Positions 2,971 to 6,642 of a DNA stretch of 17,746 bases are shown in pieces. Location of the stretch: the NCBI GenBank assembly GCA_029261515.1, contig JAJDBE010000199.1, positions 1 to 17,746 of the forward strand, in the 5' to 3' direction. A program made the translations under genes and the position numbers. The notes beneath the pieces were generated by a model, which did not search any database, had not been told where the DNA came from, and saw only the letters and a list, made by a program, of their open reading frames with translations. This DNA comes from Nitrospinaceae bacterium (GTDB lineage: Bacteria; Nitrospinota; Nitrospinia; Nitrospinales; VA-1). Within the stretch, counting starts at the first letter, position 1. The number at the start of each line of letters is the position of its first letter.

Positions 2971-3423
2971 TCACTGAGCGGTGCTTGGCGTGTCCGGGGA
3001 ACAACACCCAGCCTGACCGAACACACCATCATATGCGATCTCACCTTGTAAACGTTTGACGTAGTGGTCGGGGTCCTTTTTAAATACGTCGGGGCAATAG
3101 GGACATCGGCAAAAAAACACTTCCCAGCCCGCAATTTCCATGCGCACGGTCGACTTCACTGGTTTTTCCGCCAAACAGGTGGGACAAACGACCAAGTCCT
3201 TGGTTTCCAAAAGGTATCTGGGCGAGTCCTGATTAAACAGGTCGGCGCATCCCTGGCAACAAAAGAAATACTCCTTCCCCAGATAAATGCTCTTTGCCCA
3301 TCGATCCGGACCAATGCCCAACCTTATTAAAGAACAACCACAAGTGGGACAAATGGATGTTTCTATCGCTTTCGCCGAACTTGAGGTATCAGTTGTCATT
3401 GCATTGGCCATTTTGTTTTTCAT
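2971..3423 (-). CDS. Cys-rich protein with two tandem TRASH/YHS-like metal-binding zinc-ribbon repeats and a C-terminal GCC; last gene of the island operon
   Basis: 150-aa ORF. Repeat 1 (aa 25-70) is CPTCGC-x24-FFCCQGCADLFNQDSPRY. Repeat 2 (aa 80-121) is CPTC-x21-FFCRCPYCPDVFKKDPDHY. This is the C-x2-C ... (Y/F)FC-x2/3-C-x3-F-x2-(D)P-x2-Y layout I recognise from YHS/TRASH domains. The C-terminal AGCCSP is at nt 3001-3009. The start is uncertain: Met1 at 3423, Met5 at 3411 or Met9 at 3399, none with a clear SD. All three overlap the end of the upstream 62-aa ORF. Confidence 0.6.
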   Translation of the reverse strand: MKNKMANAMTTDTSSSAKAIETSICPTCGCSLIRLGIGPDRWAKSIYLGKEYFFCCQGCADLFNQDSPRYLLETKDLVVCPTCLAEKPVKSTVRMEIAGWEVFFCRCPYCPDVFKKDPDHYVKRLQGEIAYDGVFGQAGCCSPDTPSTAQ

Positions 3424-3577
3424 TCATTTCGGGGCAACAAGAGGATTCCTTTTTTTTGGGAAATAATTCCACCACGAAATCAATGAGTGATTGCAATTTA
3501 CTTCTAGTGCATTCACAGGCTTCCTCAGCAGAACCCGTTTCCTCCTCTATCTTGTCCCAATCCACAAATTTTTTCAT
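3389..3577 (-). CDS. Small (62 aa) acidic Cys-containing protein of unknown family, translationally coupled to the HgcA-like gene
   Basis: Its ATG (3575-3577) overlaps the TGA of the upstream gene (3574-3576) in an ATGA arrangement. The sequence MKKFVDWDKIEEETGSAEEACEC...KKKESSCCPEMNEKQNGQCNDN has a CxC, a vicinal CC (nt 3434-3439) and one further Cys. I recognise no family. The coding call rests on the coupling geometry and operon context only. Confidence 0.45.
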   Translation of the reverse strand: MKKFVDWDKIEEETGSAEEACECTRSKLQSLIDFVVELFPKKKESSCCPEMNEKQNGQCNDN

Positions 3578-4443
3578 AGCAACAATGAACCTCCATAAAA
3601 TAAAGCCAAAAATGCAAAAATCCCAGCAGTAAGCTTTCCCGAATTCTGGTTTTGCCCGAGATGAGAATGGCCCTGGGAGTCGAATCCAATAAAAGCACCC
3701 AAAGCAATAATCCCGATTGCTATCTGGATTTGCAAAACTGGATCTGTTGAGAAAAACAGCATCAATGCCAGAAGCGGTACGGTGAGCATCAACCCCTTGT
3801 ATAGCAATCTTTCGAAGGGAATAAAATGTTCAATTAATTGCATACTAAAAGCGAAGTACCAGACCAAAAGGAGGGCTTGAAGCCACCACTCGGAAGCAAA
3901 GAGTAAAATTGGAAGTATGCAGACCAATGAACAGAAAACCGCATGGCTGAGACCCATTTTAAAACGCTCCCAGTACCCATATTCTAGAGCCTGCATGTCT
4001 TTGGACTTGCGTAAACCGTTATCCAAAAATTCCTTTAAGTCGGTAAAGTAAACGGGACCGTAAATTCCCTCCCAACCATGTTCTTTCAGGATTTTTCTTT
4101 TAACCCCAGCCACAGACAATTGCGGCAGTATCAAACGAGTATGATTCACCAGCTCCCTAACATTATAAACCTTTAAATGGGCGAGAACCGATTCGGTGGT
4201 AAAAATACCTTCAGCCGCGGCACACCAGACGTTGGTGCCTTTGGTATTGACCACCAGAAGAAAGCAATCTATATGCTGTTTTTCCAAATAATTTTTTAAA
4301 TGCCGGACTGTGTAATCAAAATTGCAGGTGACCAGGACCGGCGAAGATTTATCTGGATGACCAATGGCAATGGTTTCGGGTTCGCAGGGAAACCGTGCAA
4401 ATCGAAATAGCGTTTGATAAATGTCTTTAATCCAACCGATCAT
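3574..4443 (-). CDS. HgcA-like protein: N-terminal corrinoid-binding (CFeSP large-subunit-like) domain with a Cys cap-helix motif, plus a C-terminal domain of about 5 TM helices
   Basis: 289 aa. Residues 71-79 read NVWCAAAEG (nt 4207-4233, hand-checked as aac gtc tgg tgt gcc gcg gct gaa ggt). The HgcA signature is N(V/I)WCA(A/G)GK, so Cys74 is conserved. Flanking segments resemble HgcA as I recall it (PVLVTCNFDYTV..., HTRLILPQLSVAGV, YGPVYFTDLKEFL). Residues about 163-289 form roughly five hydrophobic helices. The ATG overlaps the methyltransferase stop (ATGA at 4440-4443). Confidence 0.75.
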   Translation of the reverse strand: MIGWIKDIYQTLFRFARFPCEPETIAIGHPDKSSPVLVTCNFDYTVRHLKNYLEKQHIDCFLLVVNTKGTNVWCAAAEGIFTTESVLAHLKVYNVRELVNHTRLILPQLSVAGVKRKILKEHGWEGIYGPVYFTDLKEFLDNGLRKSKDMQALEYGYWERFKMGLSHAVFCSLVCILPILLFASEWWLQALLLVWYFAFSMQLIEHFIPFERLLYKGLMLTVPLLALMLFFSTDPVLQIQIAIGIIALGAFIGFDSQGHSHLGQNQNSGKLTAGIFAFLALFYGGSLLL

Positions 4444-5072
4444 TTTTTAATTTCCAGAAGGATGAACATGCCTAACATAAACGGTTGGCAGTTGACTATT
4501 TCCATGCCCGCCTGCCGCACATCATCATCGAAATTGGAAATCGCGTTGGTGGTGTTTTGGGTCACGATCCAGGTGAGAAGCCGCATGGGTAATCTGAAGG
4601 CATAGTAAAAAAATTTAGCTAACAAATTTTCCGGAATTATTTCGTCACCGATAAGGACCTTACCTCCCTTCTTCAAAGTTCTTTTGATTTGTTTCAATAC
4701 ATGAAGTCTTTCTGCGCGGGTCAATTCGCTGAATGCGAGAGTGCTTAAGATAATATCGAATGATTCATCCTCCAAATGTTCGTCCAGATTGCTAAGGCTG
4801 ATGTTAAGGAAATTCGCAGAAGGAGAATTTCTCTTTGCCACTGCAAGCATGCCGCTGTTGGCATCTACCCCGGTCACCTGCGCCCCTCGTTCAATGCACA
4901 TTTGTGCCAATGTGCCGGTACCGCAACCCAAATCGAGGACCCGATCTCCGGGATGTACATGATCTGCAATTTGACGTTTGATTTTCGTCAACGATCCCAG
5001 AGTCAATAGACCCATCCCAATATCGTAGCGTTCGGGACGGGATTCAAGGATTTTCATATAAACAAACGACAT
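4440..5072 (-). CDS. Class I SAM-dependent methyltransferase (UbiE/Methyltransf_11/25-like)
   Basis: 210 aa. Motif I is RVLDLGCGTGTL, post-I is VTGVDANSGM, motif II is SFDIILST and motif III is LKKGGKVLIGD. A GAGG sits 10 nt upstream of the ATG and overlaps the merT stop. Its own stop overlaps the HgcA-like start. Confidence 0.85.
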   Translation of the reverse strand: MSFVYMKILESRPERYDIGMGLLTLGSLTKIKRQIADHVHPGDRVLDLGCGTGTLAQMCIERGAQVTGVDANSGMLAVAKRNSPSANFLNISLSNLDEHLEDESFDIILSTLAFSELTRAERLHVLKQIKRTLKKGGKVLIGDEIIPENLLAKFFYYAFRLPMRLLTWIVTQNTTNAISNFDDDVRQAGMEIVNCQPFMLGMFILLEIKK

Positions 5073-5082
5073 GGTCTCAACC

Positions 5083-5415
5083 TCAAATGAAATAAGGAAA
5101 TGAAAATAAGAAAATAGTCAAGACCGCCCCTGTCCAAAGGATAATTTTGGCTGTTTTATTTTCACTGCGTGGAGTTTCACAACATTCTGCCAGTGGATTG
5201 GATGAATTCTTTTTAAAATGAAAAAAGAACGCCGTTCCCAGTAATCCAACAGCCAGAATCATCATGGGTATATGGAGAAACCCAAAGCTTCTGACAAAGG
5301 AAAGGACACCCGTTCCTATTCCCAAACCCGTGAGGATTACAGGACCCACACAACAAATAGAACCGATGCTTGCGGCGAATATCCCGAGGATTCCCGTGAT
5401 TTTAGCTTTGTCCAT
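5083..5415 (-). CDS. merT: MerT-family mercuric ion transport membrane protein
   Basis: 110 aa with three predicted TM helices. TM1 carries ICCVGPVIL, compared with the Tn501-type MerT motif CCLGPLVL as I recall it. A second Cys pair (AECCETP) lies in the loop between TM2 and TM3. The C-terminal LWTGAVLTIFLFSFPYF resembles the MerT tail (..FPY..). A GGAG sits 6 nt upstream of the ATG. Confidence 0.8.
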   Translation of the reverse strand: MDKAKITGILGIFAASIGSICCVGPVILTGLGIGTGVLSFVRSFGFLHIPMMILAVGLLGTAFFFHFKKNSSNPLAECCETPRSENKTAKIILWTGAVLTIFLFSFPYFI

Positions 5416-6138: not shown

Positions 6139-6163
6139 GATCATCTCCAGGGGTTAAATTCAT

Positions 6164-6192
6164 TTTCCCATGAATCATTTTTATCCTATAAT
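6164..6192 (+). promoter_or_regulatory. Putative divergent promoter of the merR-like gene
   Basis: A perfect TATAAT at 6187-6192 on the plus strand overlaps the operon -10 on the other strand. The only -35 candidate is weak (TTCCCA at 6165-6170, 16-bp spacer). The predicted leader contains the palindrome and AAGGAG (6219-6224) ahead of ATG 6229. Confidence 0.45.
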
Positions 6193-6220
6193 ATAGAACC
6201 TGTAGTAACTACAGGTTCAA
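6190..6220 (-). promoter_or_regulatory. MerR-type promoter of the island operon: -35 TTGAAC, 19-bp spacer, -10 TATATT
   Basis: The minus strand reads TTGAAC (6220-6215), then ctgtagttactacaggttc (19 nt), then TATATT (6195-6190). The over-long 19-bp spacer containing the operator dyad is the hallmark of MerR-family activated promoters. The predicted leader to the DUF169 start is about 40-45 nt. Confidence 0.75.
6196..6218. promoter_or_regulatory. MerR-family operator: perfect 23-bp palindrome GAACCTGTAGT-A-ACTACAGGTTC
   Basis: The 11-1-11 perfect inverted repeat was verified base by base. It sits in the 84-bp divergent intergenic region between the -35 and -10 of the operon promoter. The TAGTAACTA core resembles heavy-metal MerR-family dyads of the PbrR/CadR/ZntR type, from memory. 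Confidence 0.8.
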
Positions 6221-6228
6221 GGAGTATT

Positions 6229-6642
6229 ATGAAAAATAGAGAAAAAAGATTAACCATTGGGGTTTTATCTAATCTTACTCACTGTAATATTGAGACAATC
6301 CGCTATTATGAAAAGATTGGGATATTCCCGATGCCACCTCGAACGGAAGGTGGGCATCGGATTTATAGCGAAAATCACATGAAGCGGCTTGTTTTCATCC
6401 GCCGTGGCAGGGAGCTGGGTTTTTCACTTGAGGATATTCGCGCGCTCTTGAGGCTGGTGGATCGAGGTGATAATACTTGCGGCCAGGTGCAAAAAATCAC
6501 ACTTCACCATCTGGAAAATATTCATCGCAAGATTGTGGATTTAAAAAAGCTGGAAAAAATACTAGCTAATATTTCTTCGCAGTGTGAGGGCGGTGTAATA
6601 CCCGAATGCCCGATTCTGGATGCCCTGTTTGAAAAAAAATGA
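6229..6642 (+). CDS. MerR-family heavy-metal-responsive transcriptional regulator (three-Cys, divalent-metal type)
   Basis: 137 aa counted from ATG 6229, with GGAG 4 nt upstream. The N-terminal HTH is LTIGVLSNLTHCNIETIRYYEKIGI, followed by GGHRIYSE and a coiled-coil dimerisation helix. Cys84 (6478-6480), Cys119 (6583-6585) and Cys127 (6607-6609) are spaced C-x34-C-x7-C. The upstream part of the track ORF (5953-6228) overlaps the DUF169 gene and the promoter, so I discard it. Confidence 0.9.
   Translation: MKNREKRLTIGVLSNLTHCNIETIRYYEKIGIFPMPPRTEGGHRIYSENHMKRLVFIRRGRELGFSLEDIRALLRLVDRGDNTCGQVQKITLHHLENIHRKIVDLKKLEKILANISSQCEGGVIPECPILDALFEKK

What the first reader, a model, noticed from the sequence alone, without database searches (positions are those of the whole stretch)
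2971..6642. MerR-gated six-gene operon joining a MerT importer to an HgcA-like corrinoid membrane protein and a SAM methyltransferase, with no MerA/MerB/MerP/HgcB
Seen in the sequence: a divergent MerR-family regulator and MerR-type promoter face six co-directional genes (DUF169, merT-like, class I SAM MTase, HgcA-like, 62-aa CC peptide, tandem TRASH/YHS protein). Their junctions are 15 nt, 10 nt, -4 nt, -4 nt and overlapping, so this is almost certainly one transcript. Established knowledge: classical mer operons couple MerT/MerP uptake to MerA reduction, with or without the MerB lyase. Classical Hg methylation loci are hgcA plus the hgcB 2x[4Fe-4S] ferredoxin and are not known to be MerR-regulated or linked to merT. 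Here the uptake protein and the metal sensor of the detox paradigm sit with the corrinoid protein of the methylation paradigm, plus a dedicated SAM MTase. Inference: this is a self-contained, metal-induced methyl-transfer module. One route is SAM to Co(I)-corrinoid to the metal imported by MerT. The reverse route is a corrinoid-based demethylation that would substitute for MerB. The Cys-rich small proteins would act as metal shuttles. The substrate could be Hg(II) or another thiophilic metal or metalloid (Cd, Pb, Zn-type sensor; see the regulator finding). I do not know of a characterised system with this composition.
Basis: partly seen in the sequence, partly recalled or inferred. Interest (0 to 1): 0.92.

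Follow-up and report, generated by a model that had tools for sequence, protein, structure and literature searches.

The report
Nitrospina hgcA-like mercury operon
This is the already published "hgcA-like" gene cluster of marine Nitrospina-type bacteria, the suspected but unproven makers of methylmercury in the open ocean: a mercury-type switch controls a vitamin-B12 protein, its methyl-donating enzyme and several metal-carrying helpers.

Summary
Six co-directional minus-strand genes (DUF169, MerT-like, SAM methyltransferase, HgcA-like, a 62-aa peptide, tandem YHS/TRASH) face a divergent MerR gene across a MerR-type promoter with a 19-nt spacer.

It is not a new system. It is the Nitrospinaceae "HgcA-like" locus, 76-92% identical to public Nitrospinaceae contigs. 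Villar et al. 2020 drew its MerR/DUF169/UbiE/HgcA/YHS context and proposed MerR control. Its function was still untested in January 2026.

What this work adds:
- The methyltransferase is NCBIfam CpaM. It sits upstream of the HgcA(B)-like gene in 75 of 80 loci and is fused to it in the other five (Asgard archaea).
- The 289-aa protein belongs to the HgcAB-like clade but has lost the ferredoxin domain.
- The regulator and its operator match those of genuine merT-merP-merA operons.
- The tandem-YHS and thioredoxin-like accessories also occur in a merA locus.
- MerT is a minority insert.
- DUF169 also accompanies ArsL-like radical SAM enzymes.

Best reading (about 0.45): a mer operon in which MerA is replaced by a SAM to cobalt to Hg(II) methylation module. 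No function is shown. Fused HgcAB relatives do not methylate mercury, and no reductant for the corrinoid is evident.

The parts
6229..6642 (+). MerR-family metal sensor (137 aa), divergent from the operon
   Evidence: It has three MerR Pfam domains. The MerR, CueR and CadR NCBIfam models score alike (115-119 bits), all below their cutoffs. The best solved relative is Bacillus megaterium MerR 4UA1 (110 bits), and Cys84/119/127 align with its C79/C114/C123. It is 53-59% identical to regulators of plasmid merT-merP-merA(-merB) operons.
6190..6220 (-). MerR-type operon promoter and operator: -35 TTGAAC (6220..6215), 19-nt spacer, -10 TATATT (6195..6190), palindrome GAACCTGTAGT-a-ACTACAGGTTC (6196-6218)
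   Evidence: The sequence is conserved in at least 12 Nitrospinaceae loci. The same CTGTAG-N5-CTACAG core lies between merR and merT in plasmid merA operons.
6165..6192 (+). Sigma-70-like promoter for merR (TTCCCA-16-TATAAT), overlapping the operon promoter back to back
   Evidence: Consensus scan only (10 of 12 matches). It is not tested, and the number of promoter-like hits in the region does not exceed shuffles.
5431..6144 (-). DUF169 protein, first gene of the operon (likely start 6138, 235 aa)
   Evidence: PF02596, E 3e-23. It has four invariant Cys and one invariant His. The AF2 model has pLDDT 92.8. No relative was found by PDB sequence search or Foldseek. Relatives also sit next to CCAEP/CUAEP-tail radical SAM enzymes and next to a fused HgcAB-like gene.
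5083..5415 (-). MerT-family membrane protein (110 aa): three hydrophobic segments, a CC pair in TM1 and a second CC in the TM2-TM3 loop
   Evidence: PF02411 scores 36.7 bits against a 32.9 cutoff. NCBIfam MerT/MerTP models score about 41 bits, far below their cutoffs. It is 29% identical to the MerT of a merA operon. Hydropathy. It is present in this slot only in a minority of related loci.
4440..5072 (-). CpaM, corrinoid protein-associated class I SAM methyltransferase (210 aa)
   Evidence: NF043040 scores 257 bits against a 180 cutoff. A CpaM ORF lies upstream of the HgcA(B)-like gene in 75 of 80 loci and is fused to it in the other five, which are Asgard archaea. The only conserved Cys is in SAM motif I.
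3574..4443 (-). HgcA-like corrinoid membrane protein without a ferredoxin domain (289 aa); cap helix NVWCAAAE with Cys74
   Evidence: PF03599 63 bits; NF043039 233 bits (cutoff 285, profile positions 1-233 of 350); NF040863 139 bits (cutoff 275). The AF2 model (pLDDT 88) shows an alpha/beta domain plus five long helices. The Foldseek top hit is the HgcAB model 9a0b_A, followed by CFeSP corrinoid domains at rmsd 1.3-1.7 A.
3389..3577 (-). 62-aa acidic peptide with an invariant W..E..CECTRS motif, translationally coupled by an ATGA overlap
   Evidence: It is conserved directly after every full-length unfused HgcA-like gene, including 58-64% identical outliers. Only 13 small representative clusters exist among 1.84 billion proteins. 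It has no Pfam or NCBIfam family.
2971..3423 (-). Tandem YHS/TRASH Cys-rich protein (likely start 3399, 142 aa)
   Evidence: PF04945 scores 46.5 bits. A 54%-identical 126-aa homolog with all Cys conserved lies directly after a bona fide merA (TIGR02053 493 bits, cutoff 454).

Best explanation
Identity (near certain). The region is the Nitrospinaceae-type hgcA-like operon. It is low in G+C and sits at different chromosomal sites in different genomes.

Mechanism (inferred). It is built like a mer operon in which mercuric reductase is replaced by a methyl-transfer module.
1. Hg(II) binds the three-Cys MerR. MerR remodels the over-long 19-nt-spacer promoter and switches on the six genes.
2. MerT carries Hg(II) into the cytoplasm. 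In relatives MerT is joined by MerP or replaced by a thioredoxin-fold Cys protein.
3. Soluble Cys-rich proteins hold Hg(II): the 62-aa CxC peptide, the tandem YHS/TRASH protein and possibly DUF169.
4. CpaM uses SAM to methylate Co(I) of the corrinoid bound to the cytoplasmic domain of the membrane-anchored HgcA-like protein.
5. The Cys74-ligated methyl-Co(III) passes the methyl group to Hg(II), giving methylmercury, which leaves the cell.

Shown here: the gene families, the conserved linkage, the class of regulator and operator, and the fold. Inferred: the inducer, co-transcription, every chemical step, and the source of electrons that returns cobalt to Co(I). The ferredoxin domain of the parent clade is missing. 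DUF169, with four invariant Cys, is a candidate replacement.
For: Identity:
- 76-92% identity to Nitrospinaceae proteins.
- The same gene order in more than 40 contigs.
- The published context in Villar 2020.

Methyl module:
- CpaM passes its NCBIfam cutoff.
- The CpaM/HgcA(B)-like pair is present in all 80 loci across Bacteria and Archaea. In the five Asgard loci it is one ORF, and the one scanned (L026) has methyltransferase, CdhD and ferredoxin domains in a single 601-aa polypeptide.
- CpaM has no ArsM-like Cys site.
- The cap-helix Cys is invariant.
- The fold matches the HgcAB model and CFeSP corrinoid domains.
- SAM methylates the corrinoid in true HgcAB (PMC11588087).

Mercury link:
- The regulator's nearest plasmid relatives (53-59% identity) control merT-merP-merA(-merB) operons. 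They share the operator core CTGTAG-N5-CTACAG and the C-X7-C loop.
- The best PDB hit is a genuine MerR with all three Hg ligands aligned.
- Eight related operons instead use a co-directional MerR with a C-X8-C loop and a GTAC-N4-GTAC operator.
- MerT, with or without a MerP-like protein, occurs in this slot in several relatives.
- A merR-merT-merP-GDCCVxC unit abuts the operon in L149, L150 and L153.
- The tandem-YHS and thioredoxin-like accessories have 54% and 45% identical homologs in a merA locus.
- A distant unfused relative (L023) is followed by an HgcB-like ferredoxin and a MerTP fusion.

Expression: Tara metatranscriptomes are reported to contain Nitrospina hgcA transcripts (PMC12874090).
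Against: - No experiment shows methylation by this clade, and no hgcA-positive Nitrospina isolate exists.
- Cultured organisms with fused HgcAB do not make methylmercury. That includes Pyrococcus furiosus, and fused HgcAB is the sister form of this protein.
- The protein fails both NCBIfam equivalog cutoffs and lacks the GK of the HgcA cap-helix motif.
- No ferredoxin or other evident Co(III)/Co(II) reductant is encoded, and the hosts live with oxygen.
- The 60 distant CpaM/HgcAB-like loci show no conserved metal genes, so the ancestral substrate need not be mercury.
- NCBIfam cannot separate MerR from CueR or CadR for this regulator.
- Open-ocean Hg is picomolar, far below the usual MerR response range (established knowledge).
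- Making a more toxic product in response to Hg is not an obvious benefit.
Confidence: 0.45

Rival explanations
1. The operon is metal-regulated, but the CpaM/HgcA-like module methylates something other than Hg(II). The acceptor could be another soft metal or metalloid (Cd, Pb, As, Se, Te, Sn), or a non-metal substrate that the wider HgcAB-like family has always served. The mer-type parts would only supply regulation and metal buffering.
For: - Fused HgcAB organisms do not methylate Hg.
- The 60 distant loci carry no conserved metal genes. Their recurrent neighbours are a second methyltransferase, a TetR-like regulator and an ICMT-like protein, each seen in 5-6 loci and identified by eye from their sequences.
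- NCBIfam scores for MerR, CueR and CadR are nearly equal.
- One DUF169 relative sits beside a CpaM/fused HgcAB-like pair and a heavy-metal P-type ATPase of the Cd/Zn/Pb class.
- The DUF169 subfamily also accompanies ArsL-like radical SAM enzymes under ArsR/CmtR-like regulators.
Against: - The regulator and operator class matches genuine merA operons.
- MerT/MerP inserts and mer-locus homologs of the YHS and thioredoxin-like proteins point to mercury.
- A Cys at the position that is Ser77 in CueR argues against monovalent Cu or Ag (together with established knowledge).
- Electrophilic Hg(II) is the classic acceptor of a methyl group from Cys-ligated methyl-corrinoid.
Confidence: 0.3
2. The module works in reverse as a MerB substitute. 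Co(I) on the HgcA-like protein takes the methyl group from methylmercury, and the operon detoxifies organomercury.
For: - The operon lacks MerB.
- Co(I) is a strong nucleophile (established knowledge).
- MerB-like genes lie near DUF169 in six soil loci.
Against: - The invariant, sometimes fused, partner is a SAM-dependent class I methyltransferase. That is a methyl donor whose reaction is effectively irreversible.
- No acceptor for a methyl group coming off cobalt is encoded.
- No MerA is present to deal with the released Hg(II).
Confidence: 0.07
3. The corrinoid protein is a reductive dehalogenase-like or methyl-halide enzyme, as recently claimed for HgcAB with CCl4, and the metal genes are bystanders.
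For: - A 2026 preprint reports CCl4 dechlorination by heterologously expressed HgcAB.
- Halomethanes are common in seawater (established knowledge).
Against: - This does not explain the obligatory SAM methyltransferase partner.
- It does not explain the MerR control, the MerT/MerP inserts or the Cys-rich carriers.
- The preprint concerns true HgcAB, not this clade.
Confidence: 0.05
4. The cluster is an evolutionary relic: an HgcAB-like gene that lost its ferredoxin and no longer turns over.
For: - The ferredoxin domain is absent in all 21 unfused proteins.
- Accessory genes show decay in some loci: a frameshifted or truncated thioredoxin-like gene in L015 and L003, and an IS insertion in L009.
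Against: - The five core genes are intact with conserved motifs across proteins 58-92% identical to the window's, in more than 40 contigs.
- The operator is conserved.
- Transcripts are reported in the ocean.
Confidence: 0.03

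Closest known systems
Nitrospina 'HgcA-like' locus (Gionfriddo et al. 2016; Villar et al. 2020, bioRxiv 10.1101/648329; Tada et al. 2020-2026)
   Same: The protein clade is the same (76-92% identity). The neighbours MerR, DUF169, UbiE-type methyltransferase and YHS protein are the same. HgcB is absent in both, and MerR/Hg control is proposed for both.
   Different: This contig carries a MerT gene in the slot between DUF169 and the methyltransferase. The 62-aa peptide, the operator sequence and the slot variants (empty, thioredoxin-like, MerT with or without MerP) do not appear in the parts of those papers I read.
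HgcAB mercury methylation pair (Parks et al. 2013; Zheng et al. 2024, PMC11588087)
   Same: Both have a CFeSP-type corrinoid domain with the cap-helix Cys (NVWCA), a C-terminal bundle of five membrane helices, and SAM as the ultimate methyl source.
   Different: This protein scores 139 bits against the 275 cutoff of the HgcA equivalog model. Its cap motif ends in AAE rather than (A/G)GK. It has no HgcB, a separate dedicated methyltransferase, and MerR control rather than the ArsR-like control reported for hgcAB.
Fused HgcAB-like protein with CpaM (NCBIfam NF043039 and NF043040; 'fused HgcAB' of Podar et al. 2015)
   Same: This is the closest sequence family (233 bits). CpaM is encoded immediately upstream, often overlapping. 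Lin et al. 2023 place the Nitrospina-like sequences in this clade.
   Different: The C-terminal 2x[4Fe-4S] domain is replaced by a fifth membrane helix. A 62-aa peptide, DUF169, a YHS protein and MerR are added. The cultured fused forms tested do not methylate Hg.
Alphaproteobacterial-type mer operons (merR | merT-merP-(merF)-merA-(merB)), e.g. on Bradyrhizobium SK17, Leisingera methylohalidivorans and Pseudomonas K-62 pMR68 plasmids
   Same: Both have a divergent regulator (53-59% identity), the same operator core in a 19-nt-spaced promoter, the same C-X7-C loop and a MerT-family first transporter.
   Different: This operon has no MerA, MerP, MerF or MerB. CpaM, HgcA-like and the 62-aa peptide occupy the enzymatic position.
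ArsR-ArsM arsenic methylation (functional analogy only)
   Same: Both are metal(loid)-sensor-controlled, use SAM, and convert a toxic ion into a methylated, more mobile species.
   Different: ArsM methylates nucleophilic As(III) directly through conserved Cys residues. Here CpaM lacks such Cys, and a corrinoid is interposed, as expected for an electrophilic acceptor.

Membership tests
Nitrospina-type hgcA-like cluster (Villar 2020) | HgcA-like protein of the Nitrospina clade with the cap-helix Cys | tested here: met
   76-92% identity to Nitrospinaceae proteins. The cap motif is NVWCAA[AV]E in all 21 unfused relatives and NVWCAAAE in the window protein.
Nitrospina-type hgcA-like cluster (Villar 2020) | Neighbours MerR, DUF169, UbiE-type methyltransferase and YHS protein | tested here: met
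   All four are present in the published order.
HgcA (mercury methylation corrinoid protein, NF040863) | Score at or above the equivalog cutoff | tested here: not met
   138.7 bits against a cutoff of 275.
HgcA (mercury methylation corrinoid protein, NF040863) | Cap-helix motif N(V/I)WC(A/S)(A/G/S)GK (the high-stringency list of Capo 2022) | tested here: not met
   The sequence is NVWCAAAE. The Cys is present but GK is absent.
HgcA (mercury methylation corrinoid protein, NF040863) | CFeSP-type corrinoid-binding domain plus a C-terminal transmembrane domain | tested here: met
   PF03599 scores 63 bits. The AF2 model has five long C-terminal helices. Foldseek gives the HgcAB model 9a0b_A at E 2.5e-11 and CFeSP domains at rmsd 1.3-1.7 A. 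Corrinoid binding itself is not testable here.
HgcAB system | Adjacent hgcB 2x[4Fe-4S] ferredoxin | tested here: not met
   No CX2CX2CX3C motif occurs outside SdhB in any frame of the window. Lin 2023 reports the same for all Nitrospina.
HgcAB system | Hg(II) methylation activity | not testable with these tools
   This needs isotope-tracer assays. The literature states it is unconfirmed for this clade.
HgcAB-like fusion protein with CpaM (NF043039 and NF043040) | CpaM methyltransferase at or above its cutoff, encoded next to the corrinoid protein | tested here: met
   257 bits against a cutoff of 180, with a 4-nt overlap onto the downstream gene. The pairing is seen in all 80 loci, adjacent in 75 and fused in five.
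HgcAB-like fusion protein with CpaM (NF043039 and NF043040) | Full-length match including the C-terminal ferredoxin domain | tested here: not met
   233 bits against a cutoff of 285. Only profile positions 1-233 of 350 are matched. No ferredoxin motif is present.
Classical mer operon | MerR with three Hg-ligand Cys residues and a dyad operator inside a 19-20-nt-spaced promoter | tested here: met
   Cys84/119/127 align with C79/C114/C123 of 4UA1. The spacer is 19 nt and the palindrome is perfect. The operator core is shared with merA operons. The MerR equivalog cutoff itself is not reached (119 bits against 151).
Classical mer operon | MerT transporter | tested here: inconclusive
   It passes the Pfam threshold (36.7 against 32.9 bits) and has three TM segments with a CC pair in TM1. 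It scores only about 41 bits against NCBIfam MerT cutoffs of 130-180.
Classical mer operon | MerA mercuric reductase (and MerP) | tested here: not met
   Neither is in the window. A MerP-like HMA protein is present in close relatives only.

The most novel reading that the evidence does not exclude
Mercury methylation here would be an inducible resistance pathway. A genuine Hg(II)-sensing MerR would switch on a SAM/corrinoid methylation module that takes MerA's place. It would work without HgcB in oxygen-exposed Nitrospinaceae and export Hg as methylmercury, or after a second methylation as volatile dimethylmercury. DUF169 would be a previously unrecognised partner, either an electron donor or a metal presenter, that is shared with ArsL-like enzymes that form carbon-metal(loid) bonds. 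That would identify a source of methylated mercury in oxic subsurface ocean water and a new logic for why microbes methylate mercury.
Probability: 0.3. Interest if true: 0.9.

Novelty: new member of a known kind. Interest (0 to 1): 0.5.

Why it matters
Who makes methylmercury and dimethylmercury in oxygenated ocean water is a long-standing open question. Nitrospina-type hgcA-like genes are the most abundant candidates in ocean metagenomes, yet their activity has never been shown.

This window is one more copy of that published locus, so it is not a discovery in itself. The comparative evidence gathered here does sharpen the experiment.
- It defines a minimal cassette: cpaM, the hgcA-like gene and the 62-aa peptide gene, with or without DUF169 and the YHS gene.
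- It indicates that the switch is of the same class as those of real merA operons.
- It shows that the SAM methyltransferase is an obligate, sometimes fused, partner of the whole HgcAB-like clade.
- It flags the missing reductant as the weak point.

If the cassette methylates Hg, hgcA-based risk models for the ocean are justified, and mercury methylation acquires a resistance rationale. If it does not, a large body of metagenomic inference about marine methylators needs revision.

Tried and rejected
1. The 62-aa peptide as a remnant of the HgcB domain or of the Cys-rich post-ferredoxin tail of fused proteins. The Cys spacing is similar by eye (CxC, then about 25 residues, then CC), but hhalign gives a probability of 1.3%. 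Not supported.
3. CpaM as a direct ArsM-type metal(loid) methyltransferase. It gives weak ArsM/TehB profile hits, but no conserved Cys exists outside SAM motif I. Rejected.
4. A hidden HgcB, MerA, MerB or MerP in the window. None was found.
5. An intrinsic terminator after the last gene. None was found (fold z = +1.0).
6. Conserved metal genes around distant fused HgcAB-like loci. None was found, so the mercury link is specific to the unfused clade and L023.
7. Literature on DUF169, on DUF169 with radical SAM or mer genes, and on CpaM. Nothing functional was found.
8. Looking up the window's own record name. It is not on record. The contig length equals the window length, so the taxon is inferred from relatives only.
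9. Discriminating MerR, CadR and CueR by NCBIfam scores. This was uninformative. It was resolved instead by the contexts of the nearest plasmid homologs.

Full report
**1.

The junctions are 15, 10, -4 and -4 nt, followed by an overlap.

Two starts are probably slightly different from the longest ORFs:
- DUF169 most likely begins at ATG 6138. That start has GGAG six nt upstream and gives a 235-aa product identical to database protein P0139.
- The YHS protein most likely begins at 3399, as in relatives.

| Gene | Model | Score |
|---|---|---|
| DUF169 | PF02596 | E 3e-23 |
| MerT-like | PF02411 | 36.7 bits, just above the 32.9 Pfam threshold |
| Methyltransferase | several class I SAM methyltransferase models | pass |
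| HgcA-like | PF03599 CdhD | 63 bits |
| YHS protein | PF04945 | 46.5 bits |
| Regulator | three MerR domains | pass |

The 84-nt intergenic region carries a textbook MerR-type promoter on the operon strand. It reads TTGAAC, a 19-nt spacer, then TATATT, with a perfect 11-1-11 palindrome (6196-6218) across the spacer.

The rest of the contig is housekeeping: two HtrA-like proteases, LigA, a GNAT acetyltransferase, a dioxygenase, a DEAD-box helicase and SdhAB. The only ferredoxin-type Cys motifs are in SdhB. The stated absence of MerA, MerB, MerP and HgcB therefore holds for this window.

Co-transcription is inferred from the junctions. Promoter-like and terminator-like sites inside the region do not exceed shuffled controls. 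No terminator follows the last gene.

**2. What it is**

The 289-aa protein is 76-92% identical to proteins from Nitrospinaceae and Nitromaritima genomes and from hundreds of marine metagenome contigs. This is the "Nitrospina HgcA-like" protein first reported from Antarctic sea ice. It was later found to be the dominant hgcA-type gene of the subsurface ocean.

Villar et al. 2020 already drew its genomic context (MerR1, DUF169, UbiE methyltransferase, HgcA-like, YHS). [quoted passage not shown] Lin et al. 2023 placed Nitrospina-like sequences in the fused-HgcAB clade and noted that all of them lack a neighbouring hgcB. As late as January 2026 the methylation capacity of this lineage was described as unconfirmed, because no hgcA-bearing isolate exists.

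The operon has 0.44 G+C against 0.52-0.55 in the flanks. It is lower in G+C than its flanks in most relatives. It lies between different genes in different genomes: HtrA and LigA here, SIR2 and an HD protein in L002, PhzF and transketolase in L083. That pattern fits horizontal movement within the group.

**3. The methyl-transfer core**

NCBIfam names the methyltransferase "corrinoid protein-associated methyltransferase CpaM" (257 bits, cutoff 180). It gives the 289-aa protein its best score with "HgcAB-like fusion protein": 233 bits against a 285 cutoff, matching only profile positions 1-233 of 350. True HgcA scores 139 bits against a 275 cutoff.

A scan of one genome per species returned 80 loci.
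- In 75 of them a CpaM homolog lies upstream of the corrinoid gene, in nearly all cases immediately so.
- In the other five, all Promethearchaeota, the two are one ORF. The one scanned against Pfam carries methyltransferase, CdhD and 4Fe-4S domains in a single 601-aa polypeptide. This is a Rosetta-stone argument that the three activities work together.
- Of 61 distant relatives, 56 carry a ferredoxin motif in the same ORF. None of the 21 unfused proteins does. In those a fifth membrane helix replaces it.

Across 74 CpaM sequences the only conserved Cys sits in SAM motif I, so CpaM has no ArsM-like metal site. That fits a role in methylating cobalt rather than a metal ion.

The AF2 model of the 289-aa protein (pLDDT 88) has three parts:
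- an alpha/beta domain;
- a short helix at residues 72-77 (VWCAAA);
- five long C-terminal helices.

Its best structural matches are the deposited HgcAB model 9a0b_A over the full length (E 2.5e-11). After that come the corrinoid-binding domains of CFeSP large subunits, at rmsd 1.3-1.7 A over about 125 residues.

Since 2024 SAM is known to be the methyl donor of true HgcAB, through a Cys-ligated methyl-Co(III) intermediate. A SAM to cobalt to acceptor route is therefore well grounded for the family. It is not demonstrated for this clade.

**4. The mercury connection**

NCBIfam cannot tell MerR from CueR or CadR for this regulator (115-119 bits each). Three other lines can.

- *Solved structures.* Its best solved relative is the genuine Hg(II) sensor of Bacillus megaterium (4UA1, 110 bits). 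CadR (96), PbrR (91), Tn501 MerR (76) and CueR (68) score lower. Cys84, Cys119 and Cys127 align with the three Hg ligands.
- *Plasmid relatives.* Its closest plasmid-borne relatives (53-59% identity) are the divergent regulators of merT-merP-merA(-merB) operons in Bradyrhizobium, Leisingera and Pseudomonas K-62 pMR68. They have the same C-X7-C loop. Their merR-merT intergenic regions hold the same operator core: TTGAC**CCTGTAG**TCC**CTACAGG** and variants, against TTGAA**CCTGTAG**TTA**CTACAGG** here.
- *Regulator swap.* Of 40 related operons with both DUF169 and CpaM, 30 have this divergent regulator. Eight have instead a co-directional first-gene MerR with a C-X8-C loop. Their promoter is TTGACCCTGTAC-N4-GTACAGGGTGTAAGTT. 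From memory, this closely resembles the classical 7-4-7 mer operator. Swapping one mer-type regulator for another while keeping the cargo argues for the same inducer.

The accessory genes agree.
- The slot between DUF169 and CpaM is empty in 24 of 40 loci. It holds a thioredoxin-fold CPxC/CPSC/ECC protein in 15, and that protein plus MerT plus a MerP-like HMA protein in one.
- The window has MerT alone. Its closest relatives (the same 90% cluster) have MerT plus a 132-aa HMA protein.
- In three contigs a second merR-merT-merP-GDCCVxC unit abuts the operon.
- A 54%-identical homolog of the tandem-YHS protein, with every Cys conserved, lies directly after a bona fide merA. A 45%-identical homolog of the thioredoxin-like protein lies in the same locus.
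- In a distant Nitrospirae relative (36% identity) an unfused HgcAB-like gene is followed by a separate HgcB-like ferredoxin and a MerTP fusion.

It is one of several mercury-type accessories that come and go around a fixed core.

**5. The small and unknown parts**

*The 62-aa peptide* is a real gene. It follows every full-length unfused HgcA-like gene with an ATGA overlap. That includes the three outliers whose HgcA-like proteins are only 58-64% identical to the window's (L001, L019, L020). It keeps an invariant W..E..CECTRS motif. The SSCC near its C-terminus is conserved only within Nitrospinaceae. The family is tiny: 13 representative clusters, all 86 aa or shorter, among 1.84 billion proteins. 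A relationship to the Cys-rich tails of fused proteins is not supported.

*DUF169* has four invariant Cys and one invariant His. Its predicted fold is confident but has no solved relative.

Its 45-55% identical relatives in soil metagenomes are informative.
- In at least 26 loci they sit next to a radical SAM protein. The one scanned against NCBIfam is a "CUAEP/CCAEP-tail radical SAM (seleno)protein" (621 bits, cutoff 500). Its second-best model is ArsL, the C-As bond-forming enzyme of arsinothricin synthesis.
- The tails read ...EPWYCCAEP..., or the ORF stops after EPW[YF]C at a presumptive Sec codon.
- These pairs lie near ArsR-family regulators (20 loci; the one scanned is CmtR-like), MerB-like genes (6 loci) or MerTP/HMA genes.
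- In another lineage DUF169 follows CpaM, a fused HgcAB-like gene and a heavy-metal P-type ATPase.

This DUF169 subfamily therefore accompanies two unrelated enzyme types that make, or are suspected to make, carbon-metal(loid) bonds and need low-potential electrons. It could supply electrons, since it appears where the ferredoxin domain was lost. It could instead present the metal. Neither role is shown.

**6. Mechanism and rivals**

The best-supported reading is a mer operon with the reductase swapped for a methylation module: Hg(II) to MerR to transcription; MerT import; Cys-rich carriers; CpaM plus SAM to methyl-Co(III) on the HgcA-like protein; then methyl transfer to Hg(II).

I put the whole chain at about 0.45. 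The component estimates are:

| Step | Estimate |
|---|---|
| Identity of the locus | about 0.97 |
| Hg(II) as the inducer | about 0.7 |
| CpaM methylating the corrinoid | about 0.65 |

The main rival (0.3) keeps the methyl module but changes the acceptor. Tested fused relatives do not methylate Hg, and distant loci show no metal context. Demethylation (0.07) conflicts with an obligate SAM-dependent donor. Halomethane chemistry (0.05) does not explain the partner or the regulation. A relic (0.03) conflicts with the conservation seen.

The unsolved problem for any catalytic model is the missing reductant in an oxygen-exposed host.

**7. Verdict**

On novelty, this is a new member, with a MerT insert, of a published but uncharacterised kind. 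Its interest lies in the open question it touches, not in the discovery of the cluster.

Noticed in passing
L087-L160 (e.g. L087:2495-4708, L089:2476-4705, L091:326-2484, L148:3501-5708): In soil metagenomes and in Catenulispora rubra, 45-55% identical relatives of the window's DUF169 sit beside a radical SAM protein in at least 26 loci. The one scanned (L087) is NCBIfam's uncharacterised CUAEP/CCAEP-tail radical SAM (seleno)protein, an ArsL paralog. ArsR-family regulators (the one scanned is CmtR-like), MerB-like lyases or MerTP/HMA genes are often nearby. Many of the radical SAM ORFs stop right after EPW[YF]C, consistent with a UGA-encoded selenocysteine. I found no paper on this pairing.
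   Followed up: partly
L026:5260-7065; also L028, L029, L031, L032 (Promethearchaeota): Asgard archaea encode the CpaM-like and HgcA-like parts in single ORFs of about 600 aa. L026, the one scanned against Pfam, carries the methyltransferase, the HgcA-like corrinoid domain and the ferredoxin domain in one 601-aa polypeptide.
   Followed up: partly
L023:5262-7871 (Nitrospirae SZUA-224): A 36%-identical unfused HgcAB-like protein passes the NCBIfam cutoff (290 bits). It is followed by a separate 70-aa HgcB-like ferredoxin and a MerTP fusion. This is an independent link between this family and mercury transport.
   Followed up: partly
L088:148-4711 (identical to L146); fragment L158: In one lineage the order is CpaM, fused HgcAB-like, heavy-metal P-type ATPase (Cd/Zn/Pb class by NCBIfam), then DUF169. 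DUF169 and the ferredoxin domain therefore can co-occur.
   Followed up: no
L149, L150 and L153 (e.g. L150:8499-10264): Directly after the hgcA-like operon lies a second merR of the same type, then merT, merP, an 85-aa GDCCVxC-domain protein and a 123-aa membrane protein. No merA lies within the contig.
   Followed up: partly
L009:3387-5018; L015:5073-5343; L003:5084-5293: There are signs of decay or disruption in the variable slot. A 543-aa transposase-like ORF lies between the thioredoxin-like gene and CpaM in L009. The thioredoxin-like gene is split in L015 and truncated in L003.
   Followed up: no
L007, L009, L021: Contigs carrying operons 81-82% identical to the window's are filed under Flavobacteriales, Nitrospirales and Chloroflexota MAGs. 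This could be mis-binning or real transfer, and was not resolved.
   Followed up: no
L175:1-8381: This locus has the order ArsR-family regulator, beta-propeller protein, MerTP, HMA protein, MerA, tandem-YHS protein, cation-diffusion facilitator, CsoR-like repressor, thioredoxin-like protein, then a second MerTP. It shows that the tandem-YHS and thioredoxin-like proteins are accessories of a bona fide mer locus.
   Followed up: partly
window 35-1399 and 1499-2890 (+): Two tandem HtrA/DegP-type serine proteases (Trypsin_2 plus two PDZ domains each) lie immediately beside the island. The second one converges on the last operon gene with an 80-nt gap.
   Followed up: no
window 3574-4443 (-), residues about 255-268: The loop GFDSQGHSHLGQNQ between the fourth and fifth membrane helices is conserved in the unfused clade. 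It takes the place of the GYDxPxWSPLWR linker to the ferredoxin domain in fused proteins. The HSH might bind a metal. The model is least confident here (pLDDT about 63).
   Followed up: no
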